The notes under the pieces are model-generated. The model ran no database searches. It saw only the letters and a program-made list of their open reading frames with translations, and had not been told where the DNA came from. Made by a program: the position numbers and the translations under genes. Shown here one piece after another: positions 8,980 to 45,044 of a DNA stretch of 64,000 nucleotides. Each line of letters starts with the position of its first letter. The first letter of the stretch is position 1. Source of the DNA: Sphaerodactylus townsendi (Eukaryota); assembly GCF_021028975.2 (NCBI RefSeq), contig NC_059427.1:72106001-72170000 (forward strand). The letters are read 5' to 3'.

Positions 8980-9700
8980 CCCCCCCCCGAAGATGCCAGA
9001 ATGCCACCTCAACTGGCACCACCGAAATCCCTATTACACCCCCCGAAATATTGCATTACACACCCGCATACACCCAGCTGCACAGCCCCCTCCACCGCAT
9101 ACCCCCTTTTCCGGTACCCACCGCGCCAGTAGGTCGTGGCGGCGGCTCCAGCAGTTGTGCGCCCCGAACGGTCTTGCAACCTGCCCCCCCCCCTCCCTCA
9201 CTGCTGAACACCCCCGGGACCGACCATCCGCCGAGGGGGAGATTCCAGAGCACCAGCCCCACCACCCACCACTGTCCTCCTCCACCCCGGCGGCCCGGGC
9301 ACCAGCCCCACCACCCCCCGCAGGAGCCTCCGCTCCCCGCCTTCGGTAGAGAGTGGACCGATCCGCTGAGCCCAAACCACCCACACAAAAAAGGGGGGGA
9401 TCAGATCGTGCAAAAATGACCTACGAGCCTGCTCGATAAAGGGAGGTAGGCATCTACTGACCCACCCCACCCAGCCATTCGCCTTGCAACACCATAGGGT
9501 CTGATCTTCTCACGATTTTGGATATTGCCCCACCACTACACTATTTTTCTCCCCTTCCATGGCCCATACCACGTAGAAAAGCATGACGGGAGATGTAGTT
9601 CGACGTGGGTCTCTTAGGGAACGGTATTTGTGTGTGTGTTTCCCCTCACCCCTTCACCCCCACCCCTTTCATTTCGCGGCCAGGAAGCATTTTTAACTCT
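8980..9700 (-). promoter_or_regulatory. FAM53C: CpG-island promoter and probable non-coding first exon of FAM53C
   Basis: GC/CpG-rich block upstream of the FAM53C coding exon; candidate donor TGG|GTCAGT on the minus strand at 9461-9460. Confidence 0.7.
9581..9600 (-). promoter_or_regulatory. ZNF143 (Staf/SBS) motif with ACTACA extension
   Basis: Minus strand AACTACATCTCCCGTCATGC fits the ACTACAnnTCCCAnnATGC promoter motif; lies at the upstream edge of the CpG island. Confidence 0.7.
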
Positions 9701-10176
9701 GCGGAGTACTTAATGTAAGCCAGATGCGGTCACAACCTACACTTTCAGGAACAAGGCCCAGCCATATACAATGGAACAATATATTTACATTAATGTGTTA
9801 CTAGATTTTCTAGTGCCCCTCTTTATTAAGTAGCTTTCAGACATCTGAAGGAAAACTTAAACAATCAATGAGCCTCACTTTGAGGCTCAGATGGGCTTTT
9901 TGCACAAAACAAAGTGGGTAACCATATGGGACAAGAATGAGCAACTAGTGGCAAAGGTATGCTAAAGCTCCATGCAGTGTAACTGAAGGAAAGCAACTAA
10001 ACATATTGATCTTTGTTTCTCCAGCTAGCCAAGGATTCACTTGAAATCACAAGTATACAGAGTGGAATACACTGTAAGAAAGGCTAGTTAGGAAAGCCCA
10101 AGTATAGCCTTGAGGCCTTACTTATTAGATGCTTCATGCTTAATCACAATTCTTGGCTACTCACCACAGCTTCAAT

Positions 10177-10712: not shown

Positions 10713-13700
10713 TCAGGTCTTTCCCTCATGTAAACAGTGCCTTCTCAAGGGTGTCAAGCTCCTCCACATTCTCAAGACATCACAGCCATATTCGGGGAAG
10801 AGTGGATAGTCTTCTGTGTCTTCAGCAAAGTTCGCCACATAAGAGTGATCATTCTCACATAGCCATGGAATAAAGTAACCAGAAGCTGATGATCTGGCAA
10901 CCTAAAAAAATACAATATGAATGAAATTCTTAAGTTATTTGTCCTAGTAACTGACATCAAAGGAGTTGCTGTTCTTTCAATTCCTTCATAATATAAATTT
11001 CAATGGGATCTCTGGTCTTCGAGTCTAGAACTCCCAAAGTTTGACTTAACCCCCAATATATATATATATAATTTTTAAACTAAAATCTTCTAGTCATCTG
11101 AACTATTCCAAAGTCAGAAGAGATGTTAAAGACAATTTGAATTCAACTTACTCGAATGTGCATGCCCACTGCTAGCCATTGCTTATGTTACCCAAACAGA
11201 GTTAAATACCTGTTTGCCTAAGATTTCTTCACATGGATTTTCTAGCATCTCTTGGGTACCAAAGGAGTCATTTGAGAAGATAAGCAGAGGACTCTTCCCG
11301 GTCATCAGCTCCTGCCTTTGCAAACCAAGAACACTTTGATTCAAATTGGATAGGGAAGCAGATAGTATCAAATAGTTTTATATCCAAGCAGGAAACCAAG
11401 AAATACACAATGAGGGGTAAAGTTTTTACCATGATAATAAACAAGCTCAAATCTTTCAGTTTCTGGAAGATTCATTCGGGAGCCATTTAGCTTCAGTTCA
11501 AAACAGCCGAAAATTATTTATACTTTCCTGCATACCTGCATCTCCATTTCCTTTCCACCTACAAGATAACTATACCAAATTTCACTATTCCCATGTCACT
11601 GATTACAAAATATTACCAAGCTCTGATGGGCAAAGGAACTGTTTCTCATTGAACAGAGACAGCTCTGTTGACAATTAACTGGGTCTCCATGATAAGGAGT
11701 AATAGGGAAAAAGCATATTTAGACTAGGTCAGTTATCCCCAAACCATGTGTCATGATTGCTTCATAAATGGATCACCAAGATACTGGCAATGGATGTTGC
11801 ACAATAAGGTACTTCCAAATATAGAGCCCAGATTAAAAGTGCATCTTTCAACAAGAGGTTTCATTCACCAAGGCAGAATGTTTGGGGAGAACTATAGACT
11901 GACGATACATGTCCCACAGTTGTGCCCCTACCCTCTCTTTCTACTCTAGCCCTTCAAATTGGTCAGATGAAACCAAGAAAAACTGATAAACACTTCCCTC
12001 TCAGGTTCTGTATTCAGTCCAGGTGGGTCCCAGGCATGCAGTGCCCGTCGCCATAGCTTAATCTGCATGTCCCAGGAACGACGACTGAACTTCTTATGCT
12101 TATTTGGAGTACGTGGGTGAATACCTGACTGCCGAGAAGCTCTGAAATGAAGCACAAAAATGTATCAGGTTCTGCTACTCAGGCTACCTTCAAGCAGTAG
12201 TAAGATTTTCGAAAACAGCAATGCAAGTAGACATTCCCCTAGTGGCTCACCAGCAGTGGTGGGATTCAAATAATTTAACAACTGATTGTTTACAAGGCAC
12301 CATTTTAACAACTGGTTCTGCCGAAGTGGTGCGAACCTGCTGAATCCCACCACTGCTCACCAGGATAAGATAAAATAAACATGTGAGATATCCAAAATCA
12401 TGGGGTACAATTACAAAAGTGTCTAATCAGCACAGGTTGGATGACTTCTAGGTGAAGAGCCAGTCTCTAGATAATAATCTATGAGGCAAGAAGCAGGTAT
12501 CACTTACTTAGGAACCTGCTGGACAAAGTGTTGGTAGCCAGTGGTGTTTTTGCCATAATCTATCTGCTTCTGCCTCCTTAGCAAGACAGCCTCATCAGTC
12601 TCCTCATCAGCTCTGCAGAGGACAGACAAGAGAATGCTGAAGACAGCAAAAAGGCAAGCATCTGACCAACTAGAGCTGCTGCCCCAAGAAAACTCACCTG
12701 AATCCTGGGCATGATTTTCTTGGCCTATATGGCCTTGTACCTACACCCACACTGACCATCTGCTTTTCAAGATATAAGGTCTGGGATGATGATGTCCTAT
12801 TCACAAGAAAATGTGGTTTTGAATACTGAACATGCAAACCCATCTGACATTTGTAAAAGGATCATATAATGCTTATCGTAGCACAGCTGCTACTTTTCTG
12901 ATCTGTACATTCTAATATATTGTAATTCTGAAATAAAGTAAAGCATAACTTTTGTTTTGTTTTTTTGCAATCCAGAGCTATGGACAAGGCCACAGAACAC
13001 AAACTGCTAAAACAGATGTCCATTGGTTTTTCTCTAGGAGACTAACAGTTGGAACTCAGCAGCAAGGCAATTGAAGATCCAGTTCAAGGTCAAAACAGAG
13101 GCATTTAACACACCATGAAGATGCCTCATACAGCACTGAGATCAAATTTAATTTTATGCCAACTGAAACACATTGAACTGCTGCCTTTAAATATACTCGA
13201 AAACTATGCAAGATAATTACAGAGGATAGGATTTTTATGGAATTACTACATTACTACAAGCATGTGCTTATACTTCACTTTTTCTCCTTAGAGAAAATTT
13301 ACCTCTCAATATATGGACAAGCATTTCCCCCATCTGATTGCAGCCTCTGCCATTAGAAACCCTTCACTTTTGCAGAGGACAATAAATAATGAAGTGCTTC
13401 CATGGTTTCTTTTGCGTTATGTTCTTAGTGGCAGCAATTTCCAAAGGAGGTAAAAGTTGCTCCCAACATATTCTCCAAACCTGTTCTCCATGTATAAGGT
13501 GGATTTCTTACTAGGTTGCTCCCTTATACATTGGAGGCACAATGATACAGGGGGGTGGGATCTATAAAAAACTGCATTCGGGTAATCCAAAATCATGAAA
13601 AACAAAGAGTTGGGAAAGACAGGAATCATTTTTCAGTGATTTAAGGCACACTCACTATCATTCTTTATTAAATTCCTTAGACTTCTCATGGTATAACACA

Positions 13701-15328
13701 TTCCAGGACATGATTTATTCTCATATTAGGGAGCAGAGGCTTTAAAAGCCTTGAAGGATGGCCTCTTAAGAAATTAAATTCCCATTGACATCCCTTCCCA
13801 GGAACTGCTCCCCAAATCTTCAGTTGGCAACTCTGGTATCTAAGCCAGGTGGCAGGTTTTGTCAACACATAGAGGAAGGGTTTTCACCATTTTTAGTACC
13901 CCCTCCTCCCCACATTCATCTTCCTGATTTCATCTTAACTTGTTTTACCTACCCATCTGTTTTGGGTGATGTCCCAGCAGCAAGTCCTCCATAGCTGGAA
14001 CCCAAAGAGCCGTAAAGCAGAGAACTGAGGGAAAGTTACAAGAAAAATCACCATGTTACAGACACCTTAAACCAGGGGTCCCCAAACTACGGCCCGGGGG
14101 CCAAATGTGGCCCCCTGAAGGCATTTATCCGGCCCGCCAGGCATGGTGGCGATGGCTCCATTCATGTGCAATGGGGGCTTGAGGGAGAGGAGGAACCGGC
14201 CCCAACGGCTGTTGATTGCAGTTACATGATGGCACCCCCAAATCTCCATGAATTTTCTGACCCAGAGTTGGAAACCTTTCATGTGGCTTAACGCCGTCTC
14301 CAGCCCTTCCCTCTCACAGCTACTCCTTGCCTTCTGTTGCTCTCAGGCTTTCTGTTCCAGCCTCACTCTCATTGGCATCAGCCAGGTATTGGTGAATCAG
14401 CACAACGCTGGCTGCTAGGGAGGAAAGAACCCAGGAAGATACCTGATCCTGGGTTAGATGGAATGCTTCATTGGGAAAGTTCTGTTTTTTTTTGTTTACG
14501 GGGGAAGGTATTCCACAGCCTCCCCAACAATATTTGGAGCCCACCTTGTACTTGACATACTTTGGTCACTGTTCTAAAAATAGACCATGACAGAAAGGCT
14601 GAAAGTTGAAATCAAACATTTTACAATAATTTGTGCATAGGAATTTGTTCATAGTTTTTTTTAGTCCGGCCCTCCAACAGTCTGAGGGACAGTGAACTGG
14701 CCCCCTGTTTAAAAAGTTTGGGGACCCCTGCCTTAAACTGTTACCAGCTGTCTAAAGGAACAGAGTTTGGATTTTCCCCATATAGTAGGTTGACCCACCA
14801 CCTAAGTGACTTCCATCAGGTAAGAAACAGCTCTCATAAGACCCCTAGTATGAAAATCAATTAATAACAGTTTCCAGCTATTACTCCTTATTCATTTTTA
14901 TTCCATTCAGTAACAATGAAGAACTAGTAAAAGCCTGTAAGTTCATTCCTGAAACATATTTCCAAACAAAGAAAAATGGGGTTTACATCTAGAATACAAA
15001 CTGAAGAAACATACAAGCTTTAAACCCCTGGAGAGAAAAAGCACTCAAGCACGATAATATAGTATCTACAGCGCAAGCATTAAACCTTTAAGTGATCCAA
15101 TTTCCCAAGCCAAAGAATACTCGTTACAAAAGTGTAGTAAACGAAGGAAACTTTCACTTAACCCGTGCCACTTTATTTCTTTACTGTTGTCCCGGTGATT
15201 TTAGAAAGAAGGAAACCACTTGCGACTATTTTCCAGACCACAAGACCATCTAACACTCCAGCCTCCCTGCACAACTCAAGATTAGTCCTGCACAACCTGT
15301 TAGTCAAAGGAACCCATCCGCCTTGCAT
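10713..15328 (-). CDS. SLBP2: Oocyte-type histone mRNA stem-loop binding protein 2 (SLBP2-like), multi-exon
   Basis: Secure RNA-binding-domain exons: 12612-12508 ([35 protein letters not shown]) and 12141-~11994/11998 ([40 protein letters not shown]), joined in phase 2. WRRxLHAWD and GYQxxxQQVPK are SLBP2-type rather than SLBP1-type (WKVALHFWD). Less certain phase-compatible exons: 15328-15297, 14024-13953, 12796-12698, 11315/11311-11210, 10901-10713 (TGA). Confidence 0.88.
12254..12355. mobile_element. hAT-type MITE (102 bp) in the SLBP2 intron between the two RBD exons
   Basis: TIRs CAGTGGTGGGATTCA / TGAATCCCACCACTG; perfect 8-bp TSD CTCACCAG (12246-12253, 12356-12363). Confidence 0.9.
14073..14730. 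mobile_element. Non-autonomous hAT/Charlie DNA transposon (658 bp)
   Basis: TIRs CAGGGGTCCCCAAACT / AGTTTGGGGACCCCTG; perfect 8-bp TSD CCTTAAAC (14065-14072, 14731-14738). Confidence 0.92.
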
Positions 15329-15329
15329 T

Positions 15330-15993
15330 TTATTCTCAATTGGTAAGTTTATGTAAAAATAACCAAGACGGCTGTAGAAGCTTCCCACAGTTTAAATCTC
15401 CCTCCGGCAGGCAGGAAGGGCGGGTTCCTAAGAGGCTAGTAACACAATTAGAGGGGGAGGGCAGAAGGATGATTCTCGGCAAGCGATTGGTTGAATGAAG
15501 AGTACAAAGGAGGACGGAAAACTCCATATAGTTGTGGAACAATAACAGATGTGATTCACAAAGGCCCGCCCCCTACACCATCCCCCAATAGCTGCTGTCT
15601 CGCCGTTGACGTATGAGCTAACGGTAGCCAATTAAAAAACCTACTAGAGACTGACTGCCGGGCTTTGTCTTCTTCCTTTGATTTGATGGTTGGTTGGTAA
15701 AAAGGGAGGTGGTTGGTCGACGCTAGACCGGTAAATTTAAGTTGCGAGAAAATGTTGATTTTTAAGTCCTCTCAGCCGGTGGGAAAATTCGGTGGAATCC
15801 AGGACTGGTGATTAATTGGAGGAGAAACAACCCAAAGACGGCTTTCTTGCTAAGAGGTTGCAACTGTCTTCTAATACGGAGGAAGAGTATCCAGAGTTGG
15901 TACTGTTTTCGTAATATCTACTGAGCTTGACTTTGCTTAGCCTTATTGTTTTCTTCTCGGACGGCTGGTTGGTGGAAGATACCGCAGGCCGTC
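15330..15993. promoter_or_regulatory. Putative bidirectional promoter shared by SLBP2 and CDC25C
   Basis: CCAAT boxes at 15486-15490 (ATTGG), 15585-15589 and 15628-15632; GC boxes ~15418 and ~15566; MYB-type YAACGG sites at 15603-15608 and 15619-15624; CHR-like TTTAAA at 15391-15396. Confidence 0.65.
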
Positions 15994-18900
15994 ATGTCTA
16001 CGAATTTTTCCCCCGTGGAAACAGGTGTCCCTCGCTGGCGTTATCAGTTCCGATCCAGCTGCAAACTGTTGCTTAATTTGTTCCGGGATACCGAGAACTC
16101 CCTACCTTTCACTCCCGAACCACCTCTTACTCCAGTGTGCAACTTGATTCAAGGTTTCAGAAACGGCAGCACTTTAGCAGGGTAAATCAGACCTTGAGTC
16201 ATATTTTCTATTTTAAATATTTTCGACTTCTTTGGGTGGCCACCAACAAGAGGGAAGTGTATAGTCTTAGAAATCAACTTTTGTTGCTAGCCAGTAAATA
16301 CCTAACATAGACATGTTAGGTGTTTATGGGCTAGCAACAAAAGTTAATTTCTAACTTTCGTTTTGCCTGCCTTGGGTTTTCAGTAAAGGTTCCTGGTCTT
16401 CAGAAGAAATGTTAATCTAATCTCCATTTCTTTTAGTGAATTTATTTGTTATGTATGAGGATAACCTAAAGTCATTAACCAACCGTATTCAAGTTGCCCA
16501 AGCAGACAGATATTCTGTACTCAGCAACATACCCAAGGGCTAAGGTTTTCTATTCCCTCAGTTATATATTTGCTTTGCCATTGTTTCTAGTCATGGAGTC
16601 TTCAGACTCCTTGAGTCTCAGCAAGAAATGTGAATTATAAATGAGGCAAGTAAATAAAGAAATAATGTTTGACCTAATTGGTTAAGAGATTTAATATATA
16701 TCGTGCTGCCTTTTTTATGACTGAAAGTTCTTATTTTTAATATATAAACTGAGAGCTTCCAGTCTAGTTTTCTCCTATAATAATAAGACCAAATGCTTGC
16801 AGACTCCAGTTCCACAGGGCCTGGAAGGTGATTGAGGCAGAGATGGTTACATCTTAGCAGATTTCCCTACTCTATTGTATTTTGTTTGAATTTATTCCTC
16901 TATACTTTATTGATGTATTAGACTGCTAGTGGATATTTTATTTCTATGGTTTTAATATGGATAAAATTTTGGATTGTTTTAATATTTTTTGCTAGCCATT
17001 CTGAGCCTGACCTTGCTTGAGGAGGGATGGGATATAAATTTAATAATAATACATTCATTGAAGTGAGTAGAGTTAGGGTAGAATTCTTCTCAAAGTTGCA
17101 TTGATAGTAATTCTCTGGTGCAGCATTCTCTGGTGCAGCATTCTGGATTGGTTTCAGTACCTATGATAAGTATCCTTACATTTTTGCAAAATGGCTGTCA
17201 AGGATTTAGGATAGTACTCTTGCCTATAAGCATTCAGAGCAGAAAGGCTCTTGAAATAGATGACCAGAGGAAACCAGTCTTCAGTTTCAGTTCCTTATAC
17301 TGCATTATAGATTCTTTGGGTGTTTTTTCCTCCAAGCATTTACTGGTATGTCACTTAATTCCCACAGGGATACACCAAGACGCCGTCTAGATCTGTCCAA
17401 TCTCAGTAATGGAGAAGAAGAAACTGCCTTCTACTTCAGCCCATCTCCAGGAACATTGGAAGCTGGTACTGTTGACAACATCTCTTACAATTTTCATTCT
17501 GTATTCAGCTGCTAGCCTTTATTCATTTAGAAGTCTTATCATAAGGCCTGTCAGTGCACCTATCTTTCCTATCATGAATGTTAAACTTTAACACTAACCA
17601 GAATGCTTAGATTTAAGAGACTTTGTTTTTGGTTTTTTGATGACAGTAATAAATCCATGTGAAGTCATTTGTCTTATCTGTCTGGCAGAGGTATCCAGGG
17701 ATGCATTTTACCAGCTTGAGCAGGTTTATCAACTGCAGCCATTCCTGGAAAGAACGGAGTTAGCAACTATTATACATGCCTCTATAACTTCCAGATGAGA
17801 CTATAGTAATGTGCTGTGTCTAAGGATTCCTTTGACAAACTGCAGGAAACTTCAACAGGCACAAAATCTGCCTGCAAGGTTTTAACTGGAGCCTGACATG
17901 AAGCCTGTATAACAATAAGCCCCAACTTTCCTGGTCTTTGCAGCCATAAACAGTTGAGGGTCGTGGTGTATGAAAGACTGCTTTTCCCATGTCATCTTTT
18001 CTATGCTGTGAAGTCATATTCTTGTGATCTTCATCATTAGTTGAAGTGAAGCTGGTTGATATGTGGGACTAAGTTTCTTCATTGTCTCCAAACTGGAATT
18101 CTGTACTCGAGGAGGCTCATCAAGATCCTTCACTTGTCACTTCCTAAGGTTTGCTAAGGCTCTCTTATTCTACAGGATTGTCCATGTTCTCTTTGCTATG
18201 GCTCGCTAATTTGATGCTGTCTTTAATCACAATTGATGGTTTTTGGTTGCTGATTTAATGTTTGCTAAATAATTAACTATTTTACTAGCTTTGTATTTCT
18301 CTGGTGTTTAATAGCTGTTTAATATTGTTTTATCTGTATTTGAGATTTGTAAGTGGTTTCTAAATTGTTTTACACTTGGCAAGCAGATAACTTTTATAGA
18401 CATTGTGATTCACAGTCTTCATACCATGGTAGATAGGAAGGAACTGAAAGAGAGATGAAGGAGTGGCCGTGCAACTCAAAGTAAGCTTTTTGCTTATTCT
18501 GCACTTACTCCATTGAGTGGTCACTAGTTTCCTGGTTCAAGCCATTGGCTAGCTCCTACAAAGCCCCTAAACCCTCATATCTGCTGGACTACCTCTTTTC
18601 CTATGCCCCGCCATGATAGCTTCACTCATTTGAACAGGGTCTTCTACAGGTGCTGCCTTGCAAATGGATAAGATCAACAACTGTTCATACATGTGTGTTG
18701 TCCATAGACCCCTCCCCAAACTCACCCTATTAAATATAGAACTGTTCAGGGAGGCATTTTTATAAACAAAACCGGGCTGAATTTTAACAGGATGATTCAG
18801 GAAGATTCTTCCATAGAAAGAACGGGATTGTGGGCTATCCTAGTAATATGTATTATCTGTTTTCTTTATGTGTTACTCTCATTGCACTGCATTTCTACTT

Positions 18901-36500: not shown

Positions 36501-39500
36501 GCTCCTGCTCTCCCCATTGCCTGGGGGGGCAGAAGCCAGCCTGCAGGAAGGCCAGGGGCGGGGCTCAGCTGTGTGCAGCTTGGGTGCACACCATTTGGCT
36601 ATTGGGGTGGCACCAGGCAGTTCACCACTGCCTCCTGACTGTCCCATCCATCGAAGAAGTTCATTTGGTTGAGTGCAAGAGAAAGGGTCTTCTCAGCGGC
36701 AGCTTCATGGTTATGGAACAATCTCCCTAAGGATGTGCATCCAGCCCCCTCATTTTTTATCTTTAGGGACCAGTCAAAGACCATTTTATTTAGGACTGCA
36801 TTTGATTAATTTACTAGTAATCCTAAACTATGATTTTTTAAAAAATTGAGAGAGCTTAAACATTTATCCTACTCTGAGTTTGTATGAAACAGTGATCCTG
36901 TTTGCTAACGGAAACACCAGCAAAATGGCTTGTTAGGTGGAAAAATGTATGTCCCCTGCCCCTAAGGACTCTAAAATTTTATTGGCATTTGGAATTTGCA
37001 TTCTGTTCTGGTTGTTATTATTGTTCTAAAAGGAATTCTGGTTATTACCATAGGCACTGCAGTACACTAGTCTTCTTGCTGATGGCCCACAGGCAGTGAC
37101 CCATCTGTCCATGGTGGCAGTGTTTACCAGTGCACCTTTCTTTTAAGCACCAGCACAGGCAAAAAGAGGCATTCTGCCACTAAAACTACCACACAGCTGC
37201 TGCAAGGAAGGGGAAAGAAGGGAGGGAGAATAATGGCTCTGCTAATTGTGAATGACATATGTTAATTAACAAACAAAAAACCTTGCAGAATGTTTCCATT
37301 ATCTATTAACCAGTATTGTGCTTAAAACAAATATATGATAGAACAGATCAGAAAAATGCTGCCTAATGCCATTGTAAAGTTGTCTATATTATAACTTCTG
37401 ACCATTGCAAATAAAAAACAAAAAAAGTGTGGCATCTCCCTTTATTAAGAATGTCTGTTCTGAACTTAGGCCTTTTCTGAGTCCTTCTGGGCAGACCTCT
37501 GAGCATGACTGGCTTTCCAGGAGGGACAGCTCCAAGCAAACCCCACATTTTAGTCAAATACCAGGTCAGATGGTGTAGGTAATGGAGGCCATTTTCAAAC
37601 GGACAGACTTGGATACAGAAAAGGTTAATTAGGAGTTTGTTAAAAATGTGTTTCAGGAGCACATGTTCTAATTTACTTTTTAAAATCTTCCTTGATGATA
37701 GTTCCAGAGAGTCAGCCATATTTTCCTATTGCAGCAAAATAAAATGCCCTGGTTTTCAATATGCTTCCTGGGATGGTGTGCGAATTGCATCATGGAATTC
37801 AAGGCTCATTTGATACCATTAAAGCACAGATTGCTAATCCTGCATATGTGGTGCTAAGTATTATGGAAAGAAATGTCAAATAATTACAATGACTCAAACT
37901 GAAGCAGGGAGAATAGTTGTCGGATTTTGGTGATTACCTTTGACACATATCATGTTTGCCATCATTGCTCTAGTCTATAAAACTTTATTCCAGAATATAC
38001 TTTTGCTAGTCTTTACATTTCCAGAAAGCTCCTGTTTACTTTTAAACACAGAGAGCATTTTTGTGACAGCACTTACCATTATTGAGTCCTGTTCTCCCAA
38101 GGCCAGGGACAGGGGGTGGGGGTGGATTTGATGGAATTGGCAATAGTCCTTGCACTTTTTAAAAACTAAATGCTCTGTGCATGTTTGTATGTATAAATGA
38201 ATGTACTTTGCCTTTGGATTGTAAGAGATTGTAGCCATCTTTTGAAAAGGCAGTCTCACTGCTGTGTTCATGCTTTCATCAGAGTTTCTTTCATTAGCAT
38301 GAAGCCATATCCCTCAAATTTTTTACTTGAATACAAAAGGCAAGAGTTTTCACATAAAATATGCACTTACCCTTGCAGAAAATTCAGGACTGTGCTTTAT
38401 AAGGTACATATGGAACAGATGTTAGGAAACAAAAATGCTAGTGTCTGTGTCCTTCACAAAACTGACCTTTGCTTTTGCTAGGCTGTTTGCTGGATGTGAC
38501 ACAGGTGCCAACACATGCTTTGGCTGCCATTATAGTGGACACTGTTCTTATAATGATAACCACATTCCAAATATTAACCCAACCAGAAACAAGTTTCAGA
38601 ATTTAACACAACAAAAACTTTACTGCCATTCCTCCTTCAAGAGATGTTGTACCCCTCTCTTAGAGTGTGAGACTCCTATCCTAACTAACCAGCCAGGCAT
38701 TATTGTCAGAGTCTGATTTCTCATCTTTCTTACAGAAAAGCTGTAATGCTTACTGCTTAGCAGCTAAGTACCAGTTTCTCACTTGAGAAAAAGGAGATCA
38801 TCTACAGAGCAGCACACTTTATAAAGACAAGATGCAGCTAGTTATAAGGATCAGCCTGGGACATGATGGCAGGATCTAACTTTGACCTCCGCAGTAGCAC
38901 CAGAGTTCATCTCACAAAGTTCTGCATATGACTTCCGGGTGCGACTTCCGGGTGGGCGAGACGCTAGCTTCGAGCGGCGCCTCGAAAAGAGCTCAGCTGC
39001 AATTGCAAAAACGGAAAAGTTTTTTGCTTTCACTTTTTACGGGGTTCAGAGTACAAAAGAACCCCCACAGAGGACCTCCGGAAAATTTCCACCCCCGCGA
39101 AAACGGCAGGAGCGTCAAGCAAAGCGGCGGACACGAGCGGCCCGGGAACAGCTGATCGGGTGAGAGACGAGATGCCTCGCCGGTTCCTCAGCCAAGGCAG
39201 GGAAGCGGACCCCCAGGAGGTGGAAGGTGACGGGGGGCCACTGGGTGCCAGCGCAGGAGGACCGGGACAAGGGTTGTAGTCGTGGCGGTAGTCCGACGGG
39301 AGCCGGGACCGTTCTGAAAAGCGGCGGAGCAGGGCGCGGGGCACCGTTCTCAGCGGCAGCGGAAAGGCGGAGAAAGCCCAGCTGAGCTACAGAGCCAATA
39401 GGCAGAGCTCTTTTCCGGAGCGCATTTTTGAAACTTACATAATGTAGTTTAAATGGATGTTTTTTGATATTTTCAAGCCAGCACATACCAAGGAATTACT

Positions 39501-39647
39501 GGAAGTACAAACCACAGTGGTAAAGAAATAATTAAAAATTCTGCAGTGCCCTTTAAAAAGCTGTAACGAGAGTCTCTTGGAGCCTTGCTCGTGATCCTGT
39601 TTTTTGTGTTGGTGGCTTGGGAAACCAAGTGGAATTATCTATAAAGG

Positions 39648-40472
39648 ATGACACCAAGGAAACAAAACAGGGCACAAGTAATGCATCATGCAAACCAGGG
39701 AAGCCAATCGAACACACCAGATAAAATTAACATGAATGACGTTTGGTCAAAACTGGAACAAATAGCGGAAACAACATCAGAGACAAATAATCATGTGAAA
39801 AGGCTGGAAGAAGAGCTGATGAATATAAAACAAGAAATTAAAAAGATTGGCTTGCTGGAACAAGGGATGCACCAGATTAAAGAAGAACTGAAGCAAGTTG
39901 ACAAAAGACTGGAACAAGTAGAAGGGAAAATGGGGAATATAGATGCTGAAAGAGACACATTGGAAATGGACAACTTAAAATGGGAAAGCTAATTTAAAGA
40001 AAGATTTTTGAAGTTTAGAAAGATCCCTGAACAAGAAAATGAAAACTTGATGAACAAAATGACAGAAATATTGGCAGAATTTGTAGGAAAATCACCCCAA
40101 GATGTAGAATTTGAATTGGACGAGGCATTCAGAATTAACTCCAAAATTGCTAAGGAAAGAAACTTACCTAGAGACATACTGATAGGTTTTACTAGAAAAT
40201 CATTTAGAAATGAAATTCTACATAGACATTATGAAAAAGCCTTAAAGATAGAAGGGAGAGATATTATCATCATGAAGGAGGTACCAAGTAAAATTTTGAT
40301 TATGAGGAAGGATTTTGTAGACCTAACTTCAAGTTTAAGAAATAAATATATATATTACAAGTGGGAGATACTGATAGGAGTCTCCTTTCAATTTAAAGGT
40401 ACCAGAAGATCCATTTGGAATAAAACAGAAGCAATAGAATTTTTGAAAACATTCAGAAAAGAATTGAAGTAA
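39648..40472 (+). pseudogene. L1 ORF1 (coiled coil + RRM/CTD) with one in-frame TAA at 39990-39992
   Basis: Track ORFs 39648-39992 and 40008-40472 share a frame; heptad coiled coil followed by LPRDILIGF and YKWEILIGVSF. Confidence 0.85.
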
Positions 40473-40780
40473 TTCAGATATCGCACGAGGAGATAACAAC
40501 TAGAGGGGGTTTTTTTATGTTCAAATATCGTCTGGAGATTTAAAGTGGAGGTTTGGTACACAGAACATTAAATTAAGAGGAGCAACAATTAAGAGATATA
40601 AAAATATTTTTTTTTTTGCTTTTGTGTTCCTGTCGGGTATGGTATCAAAGTCTGGCTTGTTGAGATGTGAATTGTAACATCTTTGGTTGTGTGAAACATG
40701 AAATTACTGACATAATACTGTGTAATTTCTACTGTAACTTCTATTATTACAAATACCAATTATTTTAATTATTAAACAAA

Positions 40781-43700
40781 ATGAGTAAGATAAAATGTAT
40801 AACGTGGAATGTTAATGGGATGAACAATCCCATTAAAAGGAAGAAGGTGTACAATTTCTTAGAAATGCAAAAAGCACAAGTGATATGTGTGCAAGAAACA
40901 CATGTAATTGAGAAAGATTGCAACTTGTTAAAGAATAATAAATTAGGTGTGAATTTTGTGGCCGCTAGAGAAAAAGGAAAAAAATCGGGAATAGCTTTGT
41001 ATATAGATAGGAATTTAGGTCCAAGCTTATGTTATAAAGACACAGAAGGGCGCCTTATTGTAATAGAGGCAACTTTAAATGGAACAAAATTATTAATAGT
41101 TGGGATATATGCACCTAATACTGGGAAGCAAGCTTTTTATGACAAGGTATTTAGAAAAATTATAGATATCACAGACAATCATGAAGATGTAATGATTATG
41201 GGAGATATGAATGGCTTTGTTAATCAGGACTTAGATAAAAAATATGGAGAAAAGAAAATTGATAAGGATAAGGGGAAATTGCCGGAAACTTTTTTTGAAG
41301 GAGTAAAATACTTTAATTTGGTTGACGTGTGGCGTTTTAAGAATCAGAAAGAAAAGGAGTTTACTTATTATTCTCCAAAATATAAAACTTGGTCGAGAAT
41401 AGACATGATGTGGATATCGACAAATGTAGTAACGATGCAGTGACAAATCTGAAATTCTAGCTAATACAATATCAGACCACAAACCCAATGATATTAGAAT
41501 TGGACCAGAGGAAATAAAGTGAAGGAAAGAAAGTGGAGATTAGATAATTATTTACTGTTAGATGAGGATGTAATTTCAGATACTGTAGAAAAAAATGGAA
41601 AAGGAAATTTTTCGAGAATTAACACGGAAAATTTATGAGAAATGGAATGTGATATGGGACACTTTTTAAAGCCCAGGTAAGGGGAATTTACCTTTATCGA
41701 AATAAAAAAAACTAGAAGGAAAAAAAAAATAAGAAAAAATAGATTAAGAGGGAACTGGAGAAAGCTGCTTTAAAATGACAAAGAGATAGCGAACCATGAA
41801 AAAACAGTAAAAATACAATATTACAAGAAGAAACACATTTTATTAGACATCAATATGAAGTAGCACTAAACAGAAGAAAATAGGATAAAGGTATCTTAAA
41901 ACTAAAAGGTTCTGGTTTCTTAAACATTCAAAACTAAGTTCTCAAATAAGAATTGGTTAGCCTGGAAATTAAAAAAACAAAAGAAAAGTGGAGAATTTCA
42001 TTCATGAAATAAAAATTAATGGTGAGAAAACAAATGATAAAGAAAGGATAAAACAAGAATTTAAAATTTTTTACACAAAACTATACAAGAAAAAAGAAAG
42101 TCTTAGTGAAATTGATATAATAAACAATGTGAAATTTAAAAAACTATGAATGGGAAAAAATAGATGAAGAGTCAAAAAACTTATTAAATAAAGATATTAC
42201 TAAAGAAGAAATTATGGTAGTAATTAAGAAATTAAGAGTAAACAAAACACCAGGCCCTGATGGTATTTCGAATTTATTTTACAAAAAATTTATAGAAGAC
42301 ATAATAGAAACATTAGTAATAGTATATAACAATATCATTCAAAATGGGGTACCGGAATCGTGGAGAATGGCGAACATCACACTGATACCAAAGGAAGGAA
42401 AAGATAGATCAGAGACATCTAACTATAGGCCAATATCTCTTTTAAATTCCGACTATAAGATTTACTCAACCAAGCAATTCTGGCAAACAGATTAAAAGAA
42501 GTCCTTTTAAAAATTATTTCCCCGGACCAACTGGTTTCCTCCCAACAAGACACACATATGAAAGAACAACATGTTGAATAACAGTAGTAAACATCATAGA
42601 CTTTTATGAAAATCACCCGGATAAACAAATGGCTTTATTTTTTCTAGACATGCACAAAGCGTTTGATAGTCTTAGTTGGAATCTGATAAATGAAGTTTTA
42701 TGTAAGAAGATGTTTGGAGACAAATTCCAGACAGAAGTGGATTAAACAAATGTGCCTACCTCGGTACAACAAAGCGAGAATTATAATAAACGGGGAAAAA
42801 ACAGAAAATTGCGAAATTGAATGTGGAACCCGTCAAGGTTGCCCCTTGTCCCCATTATTATTTATTTTAGTGTTAGAAATTTTGATAGATAAAATTAAAA
42901 AGACTGACAGTATAAAAGGGACAAAAATTAAAGGGGAACAATTCAAGGTCCAAGCATATGCGGACGATTTAGTTATTATTTTGGAAGACCCGTTAGGATC
43001 TATTATAGAATTTAAAAAGATACTAGAAGAATTTGAGACAATATCTGGGTTAAAAGTAAATAGGGATAAAACGCAGATTTTGGTCAAAAATATGAGGAAC
43101 AGCGATAAAATACTTCTAGAAACTTTATGGGAGGGACAGATCACGAAGAAAGTGAAGTATTTAGGCATTAACTTGACTGCATCCAATTTAAGACTATTTG
43201 AAAATAATTACTTAGTAACATGGAACAGGATGAAAAAAGACCTCAAAATCTGGGAAAAATTAAATTTATCTATACTAGGTAAAATTGGAGTATTAAAGAT
43301 GAATGTGCTACCAAGAGTGCTCTATATGTTTAATAATCTACCGATATTAAAATCTGAGAAAATTTTTAGTATTTGGCAAACGGATATTTTGAAATTTCTT
43401 TGGGGGGGGGGGGAAACCCCGGGTCAAATACAAAGTTTTGACAGATAATAAGGAGAGAGGAGGTTTGGCGGCCCCAAATTTAAAATTATATTACGAAGCA
43501 TGCTGCCTGGTTTGGTTGAAAGACTGGTTTTCAATTAAGAACAAGAGACTATTAGCACTTGAAGGGGCAGATCTGAGATATGGAACACATGCATATTTGT
43601 GGTTTCATAAAGAAAAGTTGAATAAACAATTCTTTCAACATCCCTTCAGGTTTGCTCTGTATAAAATTTGGGATAAATATAAAAACAGATTGTATAGAAA

Positions 43701-44646
43701 TGTGCCATGGTGGATATCTCCCCATGAAGCCCTTCTGAATAAGAACGTGCTGGAGAAAGGCTGGTTAAAACTGTATGATTTATTAAAACTGGTGCAGACA
43801 GAAAAAGGACCACGAGTGGAAATCAGAACGATGGAAGAATTAGAACTGATCGGATGGAATGTGAACTGGTGGTTGTACCAACAACTGTACAGCATCATAA
43901 AGAAAGAAGCGACGCCACTGTGGATTCAAGGTTTTGAAGACATACTTTATTTAAATCTTCTGAATAAAAATGATCATTTAATTAAACGAATGTATAAGCT
44001 GTGTTTAGATCTAGAAATGGAAGATGAGGTGATAAAAGAATACATGGTAAATTGGGCTAGAGATATTGGTCATACAATCCCACTGGAGAGATGGGAAAAA
44101 GTATGGAATTCAGGACTTAAAAATATTATTAGTAATGATATTAAAGAAAACCAATACAAGATCTGGTTTAGGTGGTACATTACGCCAAAGCAACTGGCTA
44201 AATTTTCTGGTTCGTCCAACAAATGTTGGAAATGTAAGTCGGAAATAGGAAGTCTTTATCATGTATTATGGGAATGCAAGAAAGTTAAGAAGTTTTGGTG
44301 TAGTATACACAAGGAAATTCAAAAAATCTTGAAAGTAAATATAAAATGCACGCCGGAACTATACCTGTTGGGAATGAGCGATAACAGGCAAATAACTGAA
44401 AATAAAACACTATTCCAACACTTATCAACGGCGGCTAGGATTATGCTTGCCAGATACTGGCGTCAACAGACAATCCCATCGATACAAGAATGGCGATATA
44501 AAGTAATGGACCTAGTAAAAACAGCAAGACTAGTAGGATACGAATTGATGGAGATGAATGGCAAATTTAAGAATGTATGGTCAGCATGGATTAAATATAT
44601 TGAAGAGAAATTAAAACAAAAATATGTGATCTTAGATATAATTTAA
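40781..44646 (+). pseudogene. L1 ORF2 (APE endonuclease, reverse transcriptase, CCHC domain), disrupted
   Basis: TWNVNG, VQETH, GDMN, SRID endonuclease motifs; PGPDG, YRPISLLN, GTRQGCPLSP, YADD RT motifs; CWKC..HVLWEC zinc knuckle. Several stops/frameshifts at ~41440-42700 and a frameshift in the poly-G run at ~43402-43413. Confidence 0.92.
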
Positions 44647-45044
44647 TAAGAATAAAAGGTAATAGAAATATAAAATAAATACAATTAGTTGATTAAACCA
44701 GTAAGTATTTGGGTTCAGCTTGGTATGTAATTGCGGAAGTCTAGTAATTATAGATAAATTTGGAAAATGAATAATATAGTAATGATATAAGGTAAATAAT
44801 AGGTTGCAAATTGTGGATGAGATTATTTTGTATGTATTTAAGCACACTTATAATTGTAACTCGCAAATTGAAAATGTTTAAAAATGGATGTAAAATGGAT
44901 GCATATTTAGAATTGTAAATTTGTAAATATAATAAAGCAACTTAAAAAAAACAAAAAACAACGTTCTGCATATGTAAATAAAGTATGGGAGGTAAGGTCT
45001 ATGGAATTATTAAAAACTAATTGGTTACAGTAGTAATAAACCTT

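What the first reader, a model, noticed from the sequence alone, without database searches (positions are those of the whole stretch)
15330..15993. SLBP2 and CDC25C head-to-head on one compact CCAAT/MYB/CHR promoter
Seen: predicted start codons ~666 bp apart and divergent, with three CCAAT boxes, two MYB sites and one CHR-like TTTAAA that sits on the SLBP2 side. Established: NF-Y/CHR/MYB-MuvB architecture drives G2/M genes, A-MYB drives meiotic genes, and Cdc25C triggers oocyte maturation. Inference: a co-regulated oocyte module linking histone-mRNA storage with the M-phase trigger. The SLBP2 first exon is only predicted.
Basis: partly seen in the sequence, partly recalled or inferred. Interest (0 to 1): 0.7.

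Follow-up and report, generated by a model that had tools for sequence, protein, structure and literature searches.

The report
Gecko SLBP2–CDC25C compact divergent promoter
In a gecko genome an egg-cell histone-mRNA storage gene (SLBP2) and the cell-division trigger CDC25C sit back to back 665 bases apart and likely share an ordinary CCAAT-rich promoter, but the MYB sites proposed to link them change in related geckos, so joint control in the egg is unproven.

Summary
The layout is real. SLBP2 (ATG 15328, minus) and CDC25C (ATG 15994, plus) diverge with 665 bp between; both match RefSeq Sphaerodactylus townsendi proteins, and the SLBP2 first coding exon is backed by other reptile gene models. 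The interval is a single-copy, weak CpG island with five CCAAT boxes (not three; shuffle P=0.011), two GC boxes and one TTTAAA, which alone is chance-level. In two related geckos four testable CCAAT boxes, both GC boxes and the TTTAAA are unchanged (P=0.02, partly post hoc), whereas both MYB sites change. The most distant relative has a second TTTAAA on the CDC25C side. Best reading: a shared NF-Y/Sp platform with a separate outward-facing CHR-type core for each gene, not a MYB-linked oocyte module. Published data weigh against co-regulation: human CHRs in head-to-head pairs serve one gene; SLBP2 rises in growing cow oocytes while CDC25C is not listed as changing; zebrafish slbp2 is oocyte-specific at a locus described with other neighbours. 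No start site could be mapped (no RNA run). The gene order is known in cattle; this scan noted it earlier in a camelid. Modest interest.

The parts
15297..15328 (-). SLBP2 first coding exon ([10 protein letters not shown] + 2 nt), GT donor at 15296
   Evidence: Exact match to RefSeq P0121; 9 of 10 residues equal in Paroedura picta model P0006; W-x-P column in lizard and turtle models
10713..14024 (-). SLBP2 coding exons 2-7 (14024-13953, 12796-12698, 12612-12508, 12141-11998, 11315-11210, 10901-10713)
   Evidence: Joined translation equals P0121; PF15247 over cut-off; SLBP2 side of the tree
15339..15343 (-). CCAAT box 1, 10 bp above the SLBP2 ATG
   Evidence: unchanged in organisms D and E
15391..15406 (-). 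CHR hexamer TTTAAA (15391-96) with 4-nt spacer and CDE-like CGGAGG (15401-06, one mismatch), facing SLBP2
   Evidence: no change at 15376-15411 in D or E
15418..15423 (+). GC box GGGCGG (adjacent TAGGAA on minus at 15425-30, no CDE)
   Evidence: no change at 15415-15453 in D or E
15445..15450 (-). TAATTG, NOBOX-type homeobox core (others at 15629-34 minus and 15813-18 plus overlap CCAAT boxes)
   Evidence: motif definition in PMC4282238 and PMC3718783
15486..15490 (-). CCAAT box 2, best NF-Y context (AACCAATCG)
   Evidence: unchanged in C, D, E
15543..15548 (+). TAACAG (CNGTTA class, OVOL/A-MYB core) inside the unchanged block 15523-15558
   Evidence: chance-level count (P=0.35)
15566..15571 (-). 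GC box 2
   Evidence: unchanged in D, E
15585..15589 (+). CCAAT box 3 (weak flanks)
   Evidence: unchanged in D, E
15603..15608 (-). MYB consensus CAACGG, not conserved
   Evidence: G15605T in organism E
15619..15624 (+). MYB consensus TAACGG, not conserved
   Evidence: G15624A in D and E
15628..15632 (+). CCAAT box 4
   Evidence: unchanged in D, E
15682..15687 (+). TTTGAT, weak CHR-like candidate facing CDC25C
   Evidence: DREAM binds TTTGAT above background in vitro (PMC4176359)
15726..15741 (+). CDE-like GACCGG + 4 nt + TTTAAG; reads TTTAAA in organism E; candidate CDC25C core, 252 bp above the ATG
15815..15819 (-). CCAAT box 5
   Evidence: unchanged in C and D, status in E not seen
15994..16181 (+). 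CDC25C first coding exon (gene runs to 31692, 15 coding exons)
   Evidence: 100% to RefSeq M-phase inducer phosphatase 3; spliced map

Best explanation
The 665-bp spacer between the divergent SLBP2 and CDC25C start codons is likely an ordinary compact divergent promoter, in which a shared central set of CCAAT and GC boxes likely feeds two separate outward-facing cores rather than one MYB-driven oocyte switch. Shown: gene layout, CCAAT and GC-box excess, their persistence in two relatives, loss of both MYB sites. Inferred: NF-Y and Sp/KLF keep the region open and fire both ways; MuvB at a CHR near 15736-41 (or TTTGAT 15682) gives CDC25C its G2/M timing; the CDE-like + TTTAAA element at 15391-15406 lies at the SLBP2 start and would let DREAM hold SLBP2 down in resting somatic cells, while oocyte factors (NOBOX-type TAATTG sites are the better candidates than MYB) would give the oocyte peak. 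Both genes would be on in oocytes, but at independently set levels.
For: CCAAT 5 vs 1.43 expected and GC boxes 2 vs 0.25; local CpG enrichment, 33 CpG in 15001-16000, o/e 0.67 vs window 0.26; AT skew turns from + to - near 15600 and GC skew from - to + near 15400 (weak); 0 variable sites in 38 motif bases against 45 of 477 overall, P=0.020; both YAACGG sites altered; mirror-image CDE-like/CHR-like elements, the plus-side one a perfect TTTAAA in organism E; CHRs lie at or near the start site, CCAAT boxes upstream, and in human head-to-head pairs only one gene was cell-cycle regulated (PMC4176359 sections 28, 30); CCAAT arrays drive both directions at Mrps12/Sarsm (PMC1802594 abstract); SLBP2 is in bovine oocyte-growth tables S6, S7, S9-S11 while CDC25C appears only among commonly expressed genes in the stored text (PMC10998374 supplement).
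Against: No start site is mapped for either gene. In the window species and organism D the plus-side hexamer is TTTAAG, which the CHR paper's main text never names, and organism E's perfect copy comes with two changes in the CDE-like flank; which state is ancestral is unknown. Conservation is weak at this distance: the interval is no more conserved than its flanks (D: 18 of 664 vs 17 of 896, P=0.30; E: 44 of about 604 vs 60 of 930), CCAAT + TTTAAA alone give P=0.071, the quiet block round the CHR is not significant in a scan (P=0.70), and two changes in 12 MYB bases is itself what neutral drift gives (P=0.32). CDE-like + CHR occurs in 11 of 96 tiles. The TAATTG excess (3 vs 0.39, P=0.008) was picked after the fact and two of three overlap CCAAT boxes.
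Confidence: 0.5

Rival explanations
1. The TTTAAA at 15391 is CDC25C's own CHR read on the plus strand: CDC25C would start near 15400, with a non-coding first exon and an intron across much of the spacer, so the two 5' ends abut or overlap and SLBP2's promoter lies inside CDC25C exon 1/intron 1.
For: It is the only one of the three common CHR hexamers in the spacer and is palindromic; human CDC25C has its CHR at -8 (PMC4176359 Table S3); CCAAT 15339 lies 52 bp upstream in this reading and is kept in D and E; donor-like sites after 15550, 15708 and 15730 (scores 7.7, 7.3, 8.7; training range 3.5-11.4) and an acceptor-like site at 15776 (7.4; training range 6.7-15.5) exist. I recall a non-coding first exon in human CDC25C with the start some 650 bp above the ATG; this comes from no call.
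Against: The CDE-like flank is on the SLBP2-facing strand (1 mismatch vs 2); only one CCAAT lies within 250 bp upstream, against three in human (PMC4747163 passage); the putative exon holds ATGs at 15469, 15495 and 15549; the acceptor nearest the ATG (15941) scores 2.0, below all 20 training sites; the splice matrix was trained on only 18 donors and 20 acceptors.
Confidence: 0.2
2. One reading: one promoter with MYB sites and a CHR co-activates SLBP2 and CDC25C in oocytes as a functional module.
For: Compact divergent layout; order CDC25C-SLBP2-FAM53C also in cattle and CDC25C-SLBP2 in pig; both genes expressed in bovine oocytes; MYB proteins can act through the CHR without MYB sites, so site loss does not exclude MuvB co-activation; TAACAG 15543 is unchanged in C, D, E.
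Against: Both named MYB sites change in relatives; head-to-head CHRs did not co-regulate in human; different behaviour in growing bovine oocytes; zebrafish slbp2 is oocyte-specific at a locus described with zmat2, lcp2a and fam53c, in a paper that never names cdc25; SLBP2 is a pseudogene in human, mouse and rabbit while CDC25C stays; CDC25C is a somatic G2/M gene.
Confidence: 0.13
3. Inherited adjacency only: the spacer holds just the CDC25C promoter, SLBP2 starts elsewhere (an upstream non-coding exon or intron 1), and the SLBP2-side TTTAAA is a chance hexamer.
For: TTTAAA occurs in 49 of 96 tiles; RefSeq isoform X2 (P0002) and the Heteronotia model begin at the exon-3 Met, so other 5' ends exist; the Euleptes model begins antisense to the CDC25C ATG.
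Against: The first coding exon is shared by several reptile models, so a transcript must start above 15328 and, unless it overlaps CDC25C, inside the spacer; the unchanged runs of 36 bp or more all lie in 15295-15558, on the SLBP2 side (4 such runs, P=0.022, post hoc).
Confidence: 0.15

Closest known systems
Human CDC25C CCAAT/CDE/CHR promoter (PMC4176359 Table S3 row; PMC4747163 passages)
   Same: Same gene; several CCAAT boxes, GC-rich CDE-like sequence 4 nt before a CHR-type hexamer
   Different: Human has TTTGAA at -8 and no conserved MYB site listed; here the only common CHR hexamer is 597 bp from the CDC25C ATG and faces SLBP2; no ~33-bp CCAAT array
Head-to-head genes with a CHR (PMC4176359 section 30)
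   Same: CHR between two divergent genes
   Different: There only one partner was cell-cycle regulated; here the partner is an oocyte gene and expression is untested
Mrps12/Sarsm NF-Y bidirectional promoter (PMC1802594, abstract)
   Same: Several CCAAT boxes between divergent genes
   Different: That region is under 200 bp, housekeeping, and proven by reporter and ChIP
Mammalian CDC25C-SLBP2-FAM53C locus (cattle list, PMC7764440; pig list, PMC6487013)
   Same: Same gene order; a FAM53 exon lies left of the window on the minus strand
   Different: Orientation and spacing in mammals were not seen in those lists

Membership tests
SLBP2 (oocyte SLBP paralogue) | SLBP RNA-binding domain | tested here: met
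   PF15247 56.8 and 41 bits on two exons, cut-off 27
SLBP2 (oocyte SLBP paralogue) | Groups apart from SLBP1; GYQ-type segment instead of AYD | tested here: met
   Quick IQ-TREE tree of 34 rows, SH-aLRT 100 between 6 amphibian SLBP1 rows and the rest (careful tree unfinished); TGYQHFVQQ vs motif in PMC6239174; a second family locus on contig C7
SLBP2 (oocyte SLBP paralogue) | Oocyte-restricted expression | not testable with these tools
   Needs gecko tissue RNA
CDC25C | Orthology and intact ORF | tested here: met
   100% to RefSeq M-phase inducer phosphatase 3; 15 exons mapped
Bidirectional promoter | Divergent starts within 1 kb | tested here: inconclusive
   ATGs 665 bp apart, so starts must be closer or overlap; starts not mapped
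Bidirectional promoter | Shared elements needed for both directions | not testable with these tools
   Needs a dual reporter
CHR promoter (DREAM/MMB/FOXM1-MuvB) | A validated CHR hexamer | tested here: met
   TTTAAA 15391-96; plus-side TTTAAG is not a named variant
CHR promoter (DREAM/MMB/FOXM1-MuvB) | CHR conserved across species | tested here: inconclusive
   Unchanged in 2 of 2 covering relatives, but at 2-7% divergence this is expected by chance
CHR promoter (DREAM/MMB/FOXM1-MuvB) | CHR at or near the transcription start | not testable with these tools
   No start mapped
CHR promoter (DREAM/MMB/FOXM1-MuvB) | CCAAT boxes about 33 bp apart (cyclin B2 type) | tested here: not met
   Spacings 147, 99, 43, 187
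CHR promoter (DREAM/MMB/FOXM1-MuvB) | MuvB binding, late cell-cycle peak | not testable with these tools
   Needs ChIP and synchronised cells
A-MYB/MYB-site target promoter | Conserved YAACKG sites | tested here: not met
   2 of 2 fully testable sites changed; third site 15861 unchanged in C and D, not seen in E

The most novel reading that the evidence does not exclude
A vertebrate oocyte-specific gene is run by a somatic G2/M switch: the CDE/CHR element facing SLBP2 is functional, DREAM silences SLBP2 in resting soma, and in prophase-arrested oocytes MuvB activates SLBP2 and CDC25C together from this one amniote-old divergent promoter, tying histone-mRNA storage to M-phase competence.
Probability: 0.15. 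Interest if true: 0.6.

Novelty: new member of a known kind. Interest (0 to 1): 0.3.

Why it matters
Little is in print, in the library searched, on what drives SLBP2 transcription. A 665-bp natural divergent promoter joining a somatic G2/M gene to an oocyte gene is a compact system for testing how direction and tissue specificity are set at CHR promoters, which PMC4176359 left open. If the two genes prove uncoupled it is one more case of a known rule; if coupled through the CHR it would be an exception to it.

Tried and rejected
RNA evidence: no RNA holder listed among 9 runs; this says nothing on expression. Run X4 (organism B) gave no cover of the spacer and X5 (organism C) only three pieces (15093-15291, 15397-15556, 15796-16055). 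Metagenome scan with the SLBP alignment: 76 loci; none of 80 stored loci had a CDC25 or promoter match. Earlier-findings look-ups by place and by sequence were empty; one search gave 7 notes on other loci, not used. Three classic cdc25C promoter papers are not held (PMC113852, PMC398060, PMC394543), and a search for the human CDC25C exon layout listed nothing relevant in 25 of 249 rows, so the human start-to-ATG distance stays recalled. One search was dominated by papers without SLBP2; none of the 30 rows listed (of 683) contained SLBP2. Splice-site scoring could not decide the CDC25C 5' UTR. Pfam scan of 7 ORFs left of SLBP2 found nothing useful. Rejected: transposon origin of the spacer (one genomic match; flat contig depth); E-box enrichment (P=0.27) and LHX8 TGATTG (0 sites); TAGGAA 15425-30 as a B-myb-type CHR (no CDE, 3 mismatches); SLBP1 identity. 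Supplementary Figure S5 of PMC4176359 (file 1) and three image files of PMC10998374 could not be read, and both large tables were cut when stored; they may bear on the head-to-head rule and on the CDC25C absence.

Full report
Identity and layout. The window is gecko DNA: its exons give proteins identical to RefSeq Sphaerodactylus townsendi models. On the minus strand seven exons from ATG 15328 to 10713 translate exactly to XP_048346601.1, which carries the SLBP RNA-binding domain and falls with SLBP2, apart from six amphibian SLBP1 rows, in a quick tree of 34 of the 120 listed homologues plus one cluster member. A second family locus lies on another contig. On the plus strand 15 exons from ATG 15994 map all of CDC25C isoform X1. 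The ATGs are 665 bp apart. A FAM53 exon lies left of the window on the minus strand, giving FAM53-SLBP2-CDC25C, the order listed for cattle (PMC7764440, one passage); pig has CDC25C, SLBP2 adjacent (PMC6487013, one passage).

Motifs and chance. The spacer is single-copy and CpG-enriched. It holds five CCAAT boxes, two GC boxes, three YAACKG sites and one TTTAAA. Only CCAAT (P=0.011; 1 of 96 tiles) and GC boxes (P=0.026; 1 of 96) exceed shuffles; MYB sites (P about 0.1) and TTTAAA (P=0.44; 49 of 96 tiles) do not. These P values are not corrected for the several motifs tried. CCAAT spacing is irregular. By the CDE definition of PMC4176359 the TTTAAA has a one-mismatch CDE 4 nt upstream on the minus strand, facing SLBP2; a mirror element, GACCGG + 4 nt + TTTAAG, faces CDC25C 252 bp above its ATG.

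Relatives. Contigs of four public runs were laid on the region and one again on 15285-15900. Organism D (run X6) differs at 36 letters in 1560 bp, 35 listed. Organism E (run X9) differs at 44 letters in 15295-15900, 40 listed; the list stops at 15806 and lacks a change known at 15842, so I infer the 4 hidden ones lie beyond 15806, leaving CCAAT 15815 and the third MYB site unseen in E. Four CCAAT boxes, TTTAAA and both GC boxes are unchanged in D and E: 0 variable sites in 38 bp against 45 of 477 (P=0.020; CCAAT + TTTAAA alone P=0.071). The plus-strand MYB site reads TAACGA in both D and E, so the window's consensus is probably recent; the minus-strand site is broken in E. E carries TTTAAA at 15736-41 but two changes in its CDE-like flank. 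Against over-reading: the spacer is no more conserved than its flanks, the longest unchanged run is not significant (P=0.33), and the MYB changes are what neutral drift would give. All four unchanged runs of 36 bp or more lie on the SLBP2 side (P=0.022, post hoc). Three NOBOX-type TAATTG cores (P=0.008, post hoc, two overlapping CCAAT; motif from passages of PMC4282238 and PMC3718783) are a better-matched oocyte input than A-MYB, which PMC11789646 (passages) treats as the testis counterpart of OVOL.

Literature on mechanism. PMC4176359 (passages, sections 28 and 30, Table S3 rows): TTTAAA is one of three common CHRs; CHRs sit at the start site in either orientation; MYB sites are not generally needed; CHRs between head-to-head genes did not give co-expression; human CDC25C has TTTGAA at -8, a CDE at -18 and an empty MYB-site column. 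PMC4747163 (passages): three CCAAT boxes activate human CDC25C. PMC11229319 (passages): A-MYB and B-MYB both activate CDC25C in somatic cells. PMC1802594 (abstract): CCAAT arrays can drive two directions. PMC6239174 (section 5 and passages) and PMC7179931 (passages): slbp2 is oocyte-specific in zebrafish; PMC7255616 (section 13 and passages) places teleost slbp2 beside zmat2 in opposite orientation and never names cdc25, though it does not describe both flanks in text. PMC10998374 (passages and supplement rows): bovine SLBP2 correlates with oocyte size (0.89) and is in tables S6, S7, S9, S10, S11, while all 7 CDC25C hits are in table S2 (commonly expressed genes); the file was cut when stored and steady-state mRNA is not transcription. 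PMC7226043 (passages): SLBP2 is a pseudogene in human, mouse and rabbit. A shared SLBP2/CDC25C promoter was not found in print: 3 papers hold both names (all three checked by passage), 16 hold SLBP2 + oocyte + promoter (listing) and 40 of 50 SLBP2 papers were listed; most subscription papers, including the 2012 bovine SLBP2 paper, are outside the library.

How it most likely works. Shown: divergent layout, CCAAT/GC excess and persistence, MYB-site turnover. Inferred (0.5): a central NF-Y/Sp platform serves both directions; each gene has its own CHR-type core; CDC25C gets G2/M timing from MuvB on the right, SLBP2 is held down in resting soma from the left core and raised in oocytes by oocyte factors. 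Start-site mapping separates the first three; a dual reporter tests the last.

Verdict. Observation partly confirmed, interpretation partly supported. A new member of a known kind (compact head-to-head CCAAT/CHR-type promoter) at a known locus. Interest 0.3; the surviving bold reading, that a CDE/CHR element controls an oocyte gene and couples it to CDC25C, has probability about 0.15.

Noticed in passing
window 11997-11316 (SLBP2 intron 5, minus): The RefSeq protein (…PERQELMT…) needs a GG-AG intron (donor context AG|GGAAGT); a GT donor 4 nt further with an acceptor 4 nt further gives …PEREEL…, and both forms occur among squamate models. Possibly a conserved tandem non-canonical 5' splice site, or an annotation artefact.
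   Followed up: partly
window 14073-14730 (SLBP2 intron 1): A 658-bp element with 15-bp terminal inverted repeats and an 8-bp target-site duplication, read, hAT-like by recall; contigs of organisms D and E start matching only at 14734, hinting at a recent insertion.
   Followed up: no
window 15933-15995 (minus): The Euleptes SLBP2 model P0007 begins in an antisense frame over the CDC25C start codon, 86% identical to the window over 21 residues; either a prediction artefact or a sign of overlapping 5' ends.
   Followed up: no
window about 9000-9750: CpG island 1 kb below the SLBP2 stop, probably the FAM53C promoter, with a ZNF143-like motif (recalled) near 9600 on the minus strand.
   Followed up: no
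L083 500-1750 (G000:C3:72190500-72191750): CpG island with two TTTGAA 20 bp apart and a CCAAT box about 90 bp before them; by mammalian gene order possibly the KIF20A/BRD8 promoter; genes not identified.
   Followed up: no
window 38750-45000: CpG island with TTTGAA and TTTAAA at 39427-39557, followed by about 5 kb of 30% GC sequence with strong GC and AT skew; not examined.
   Followed up: no
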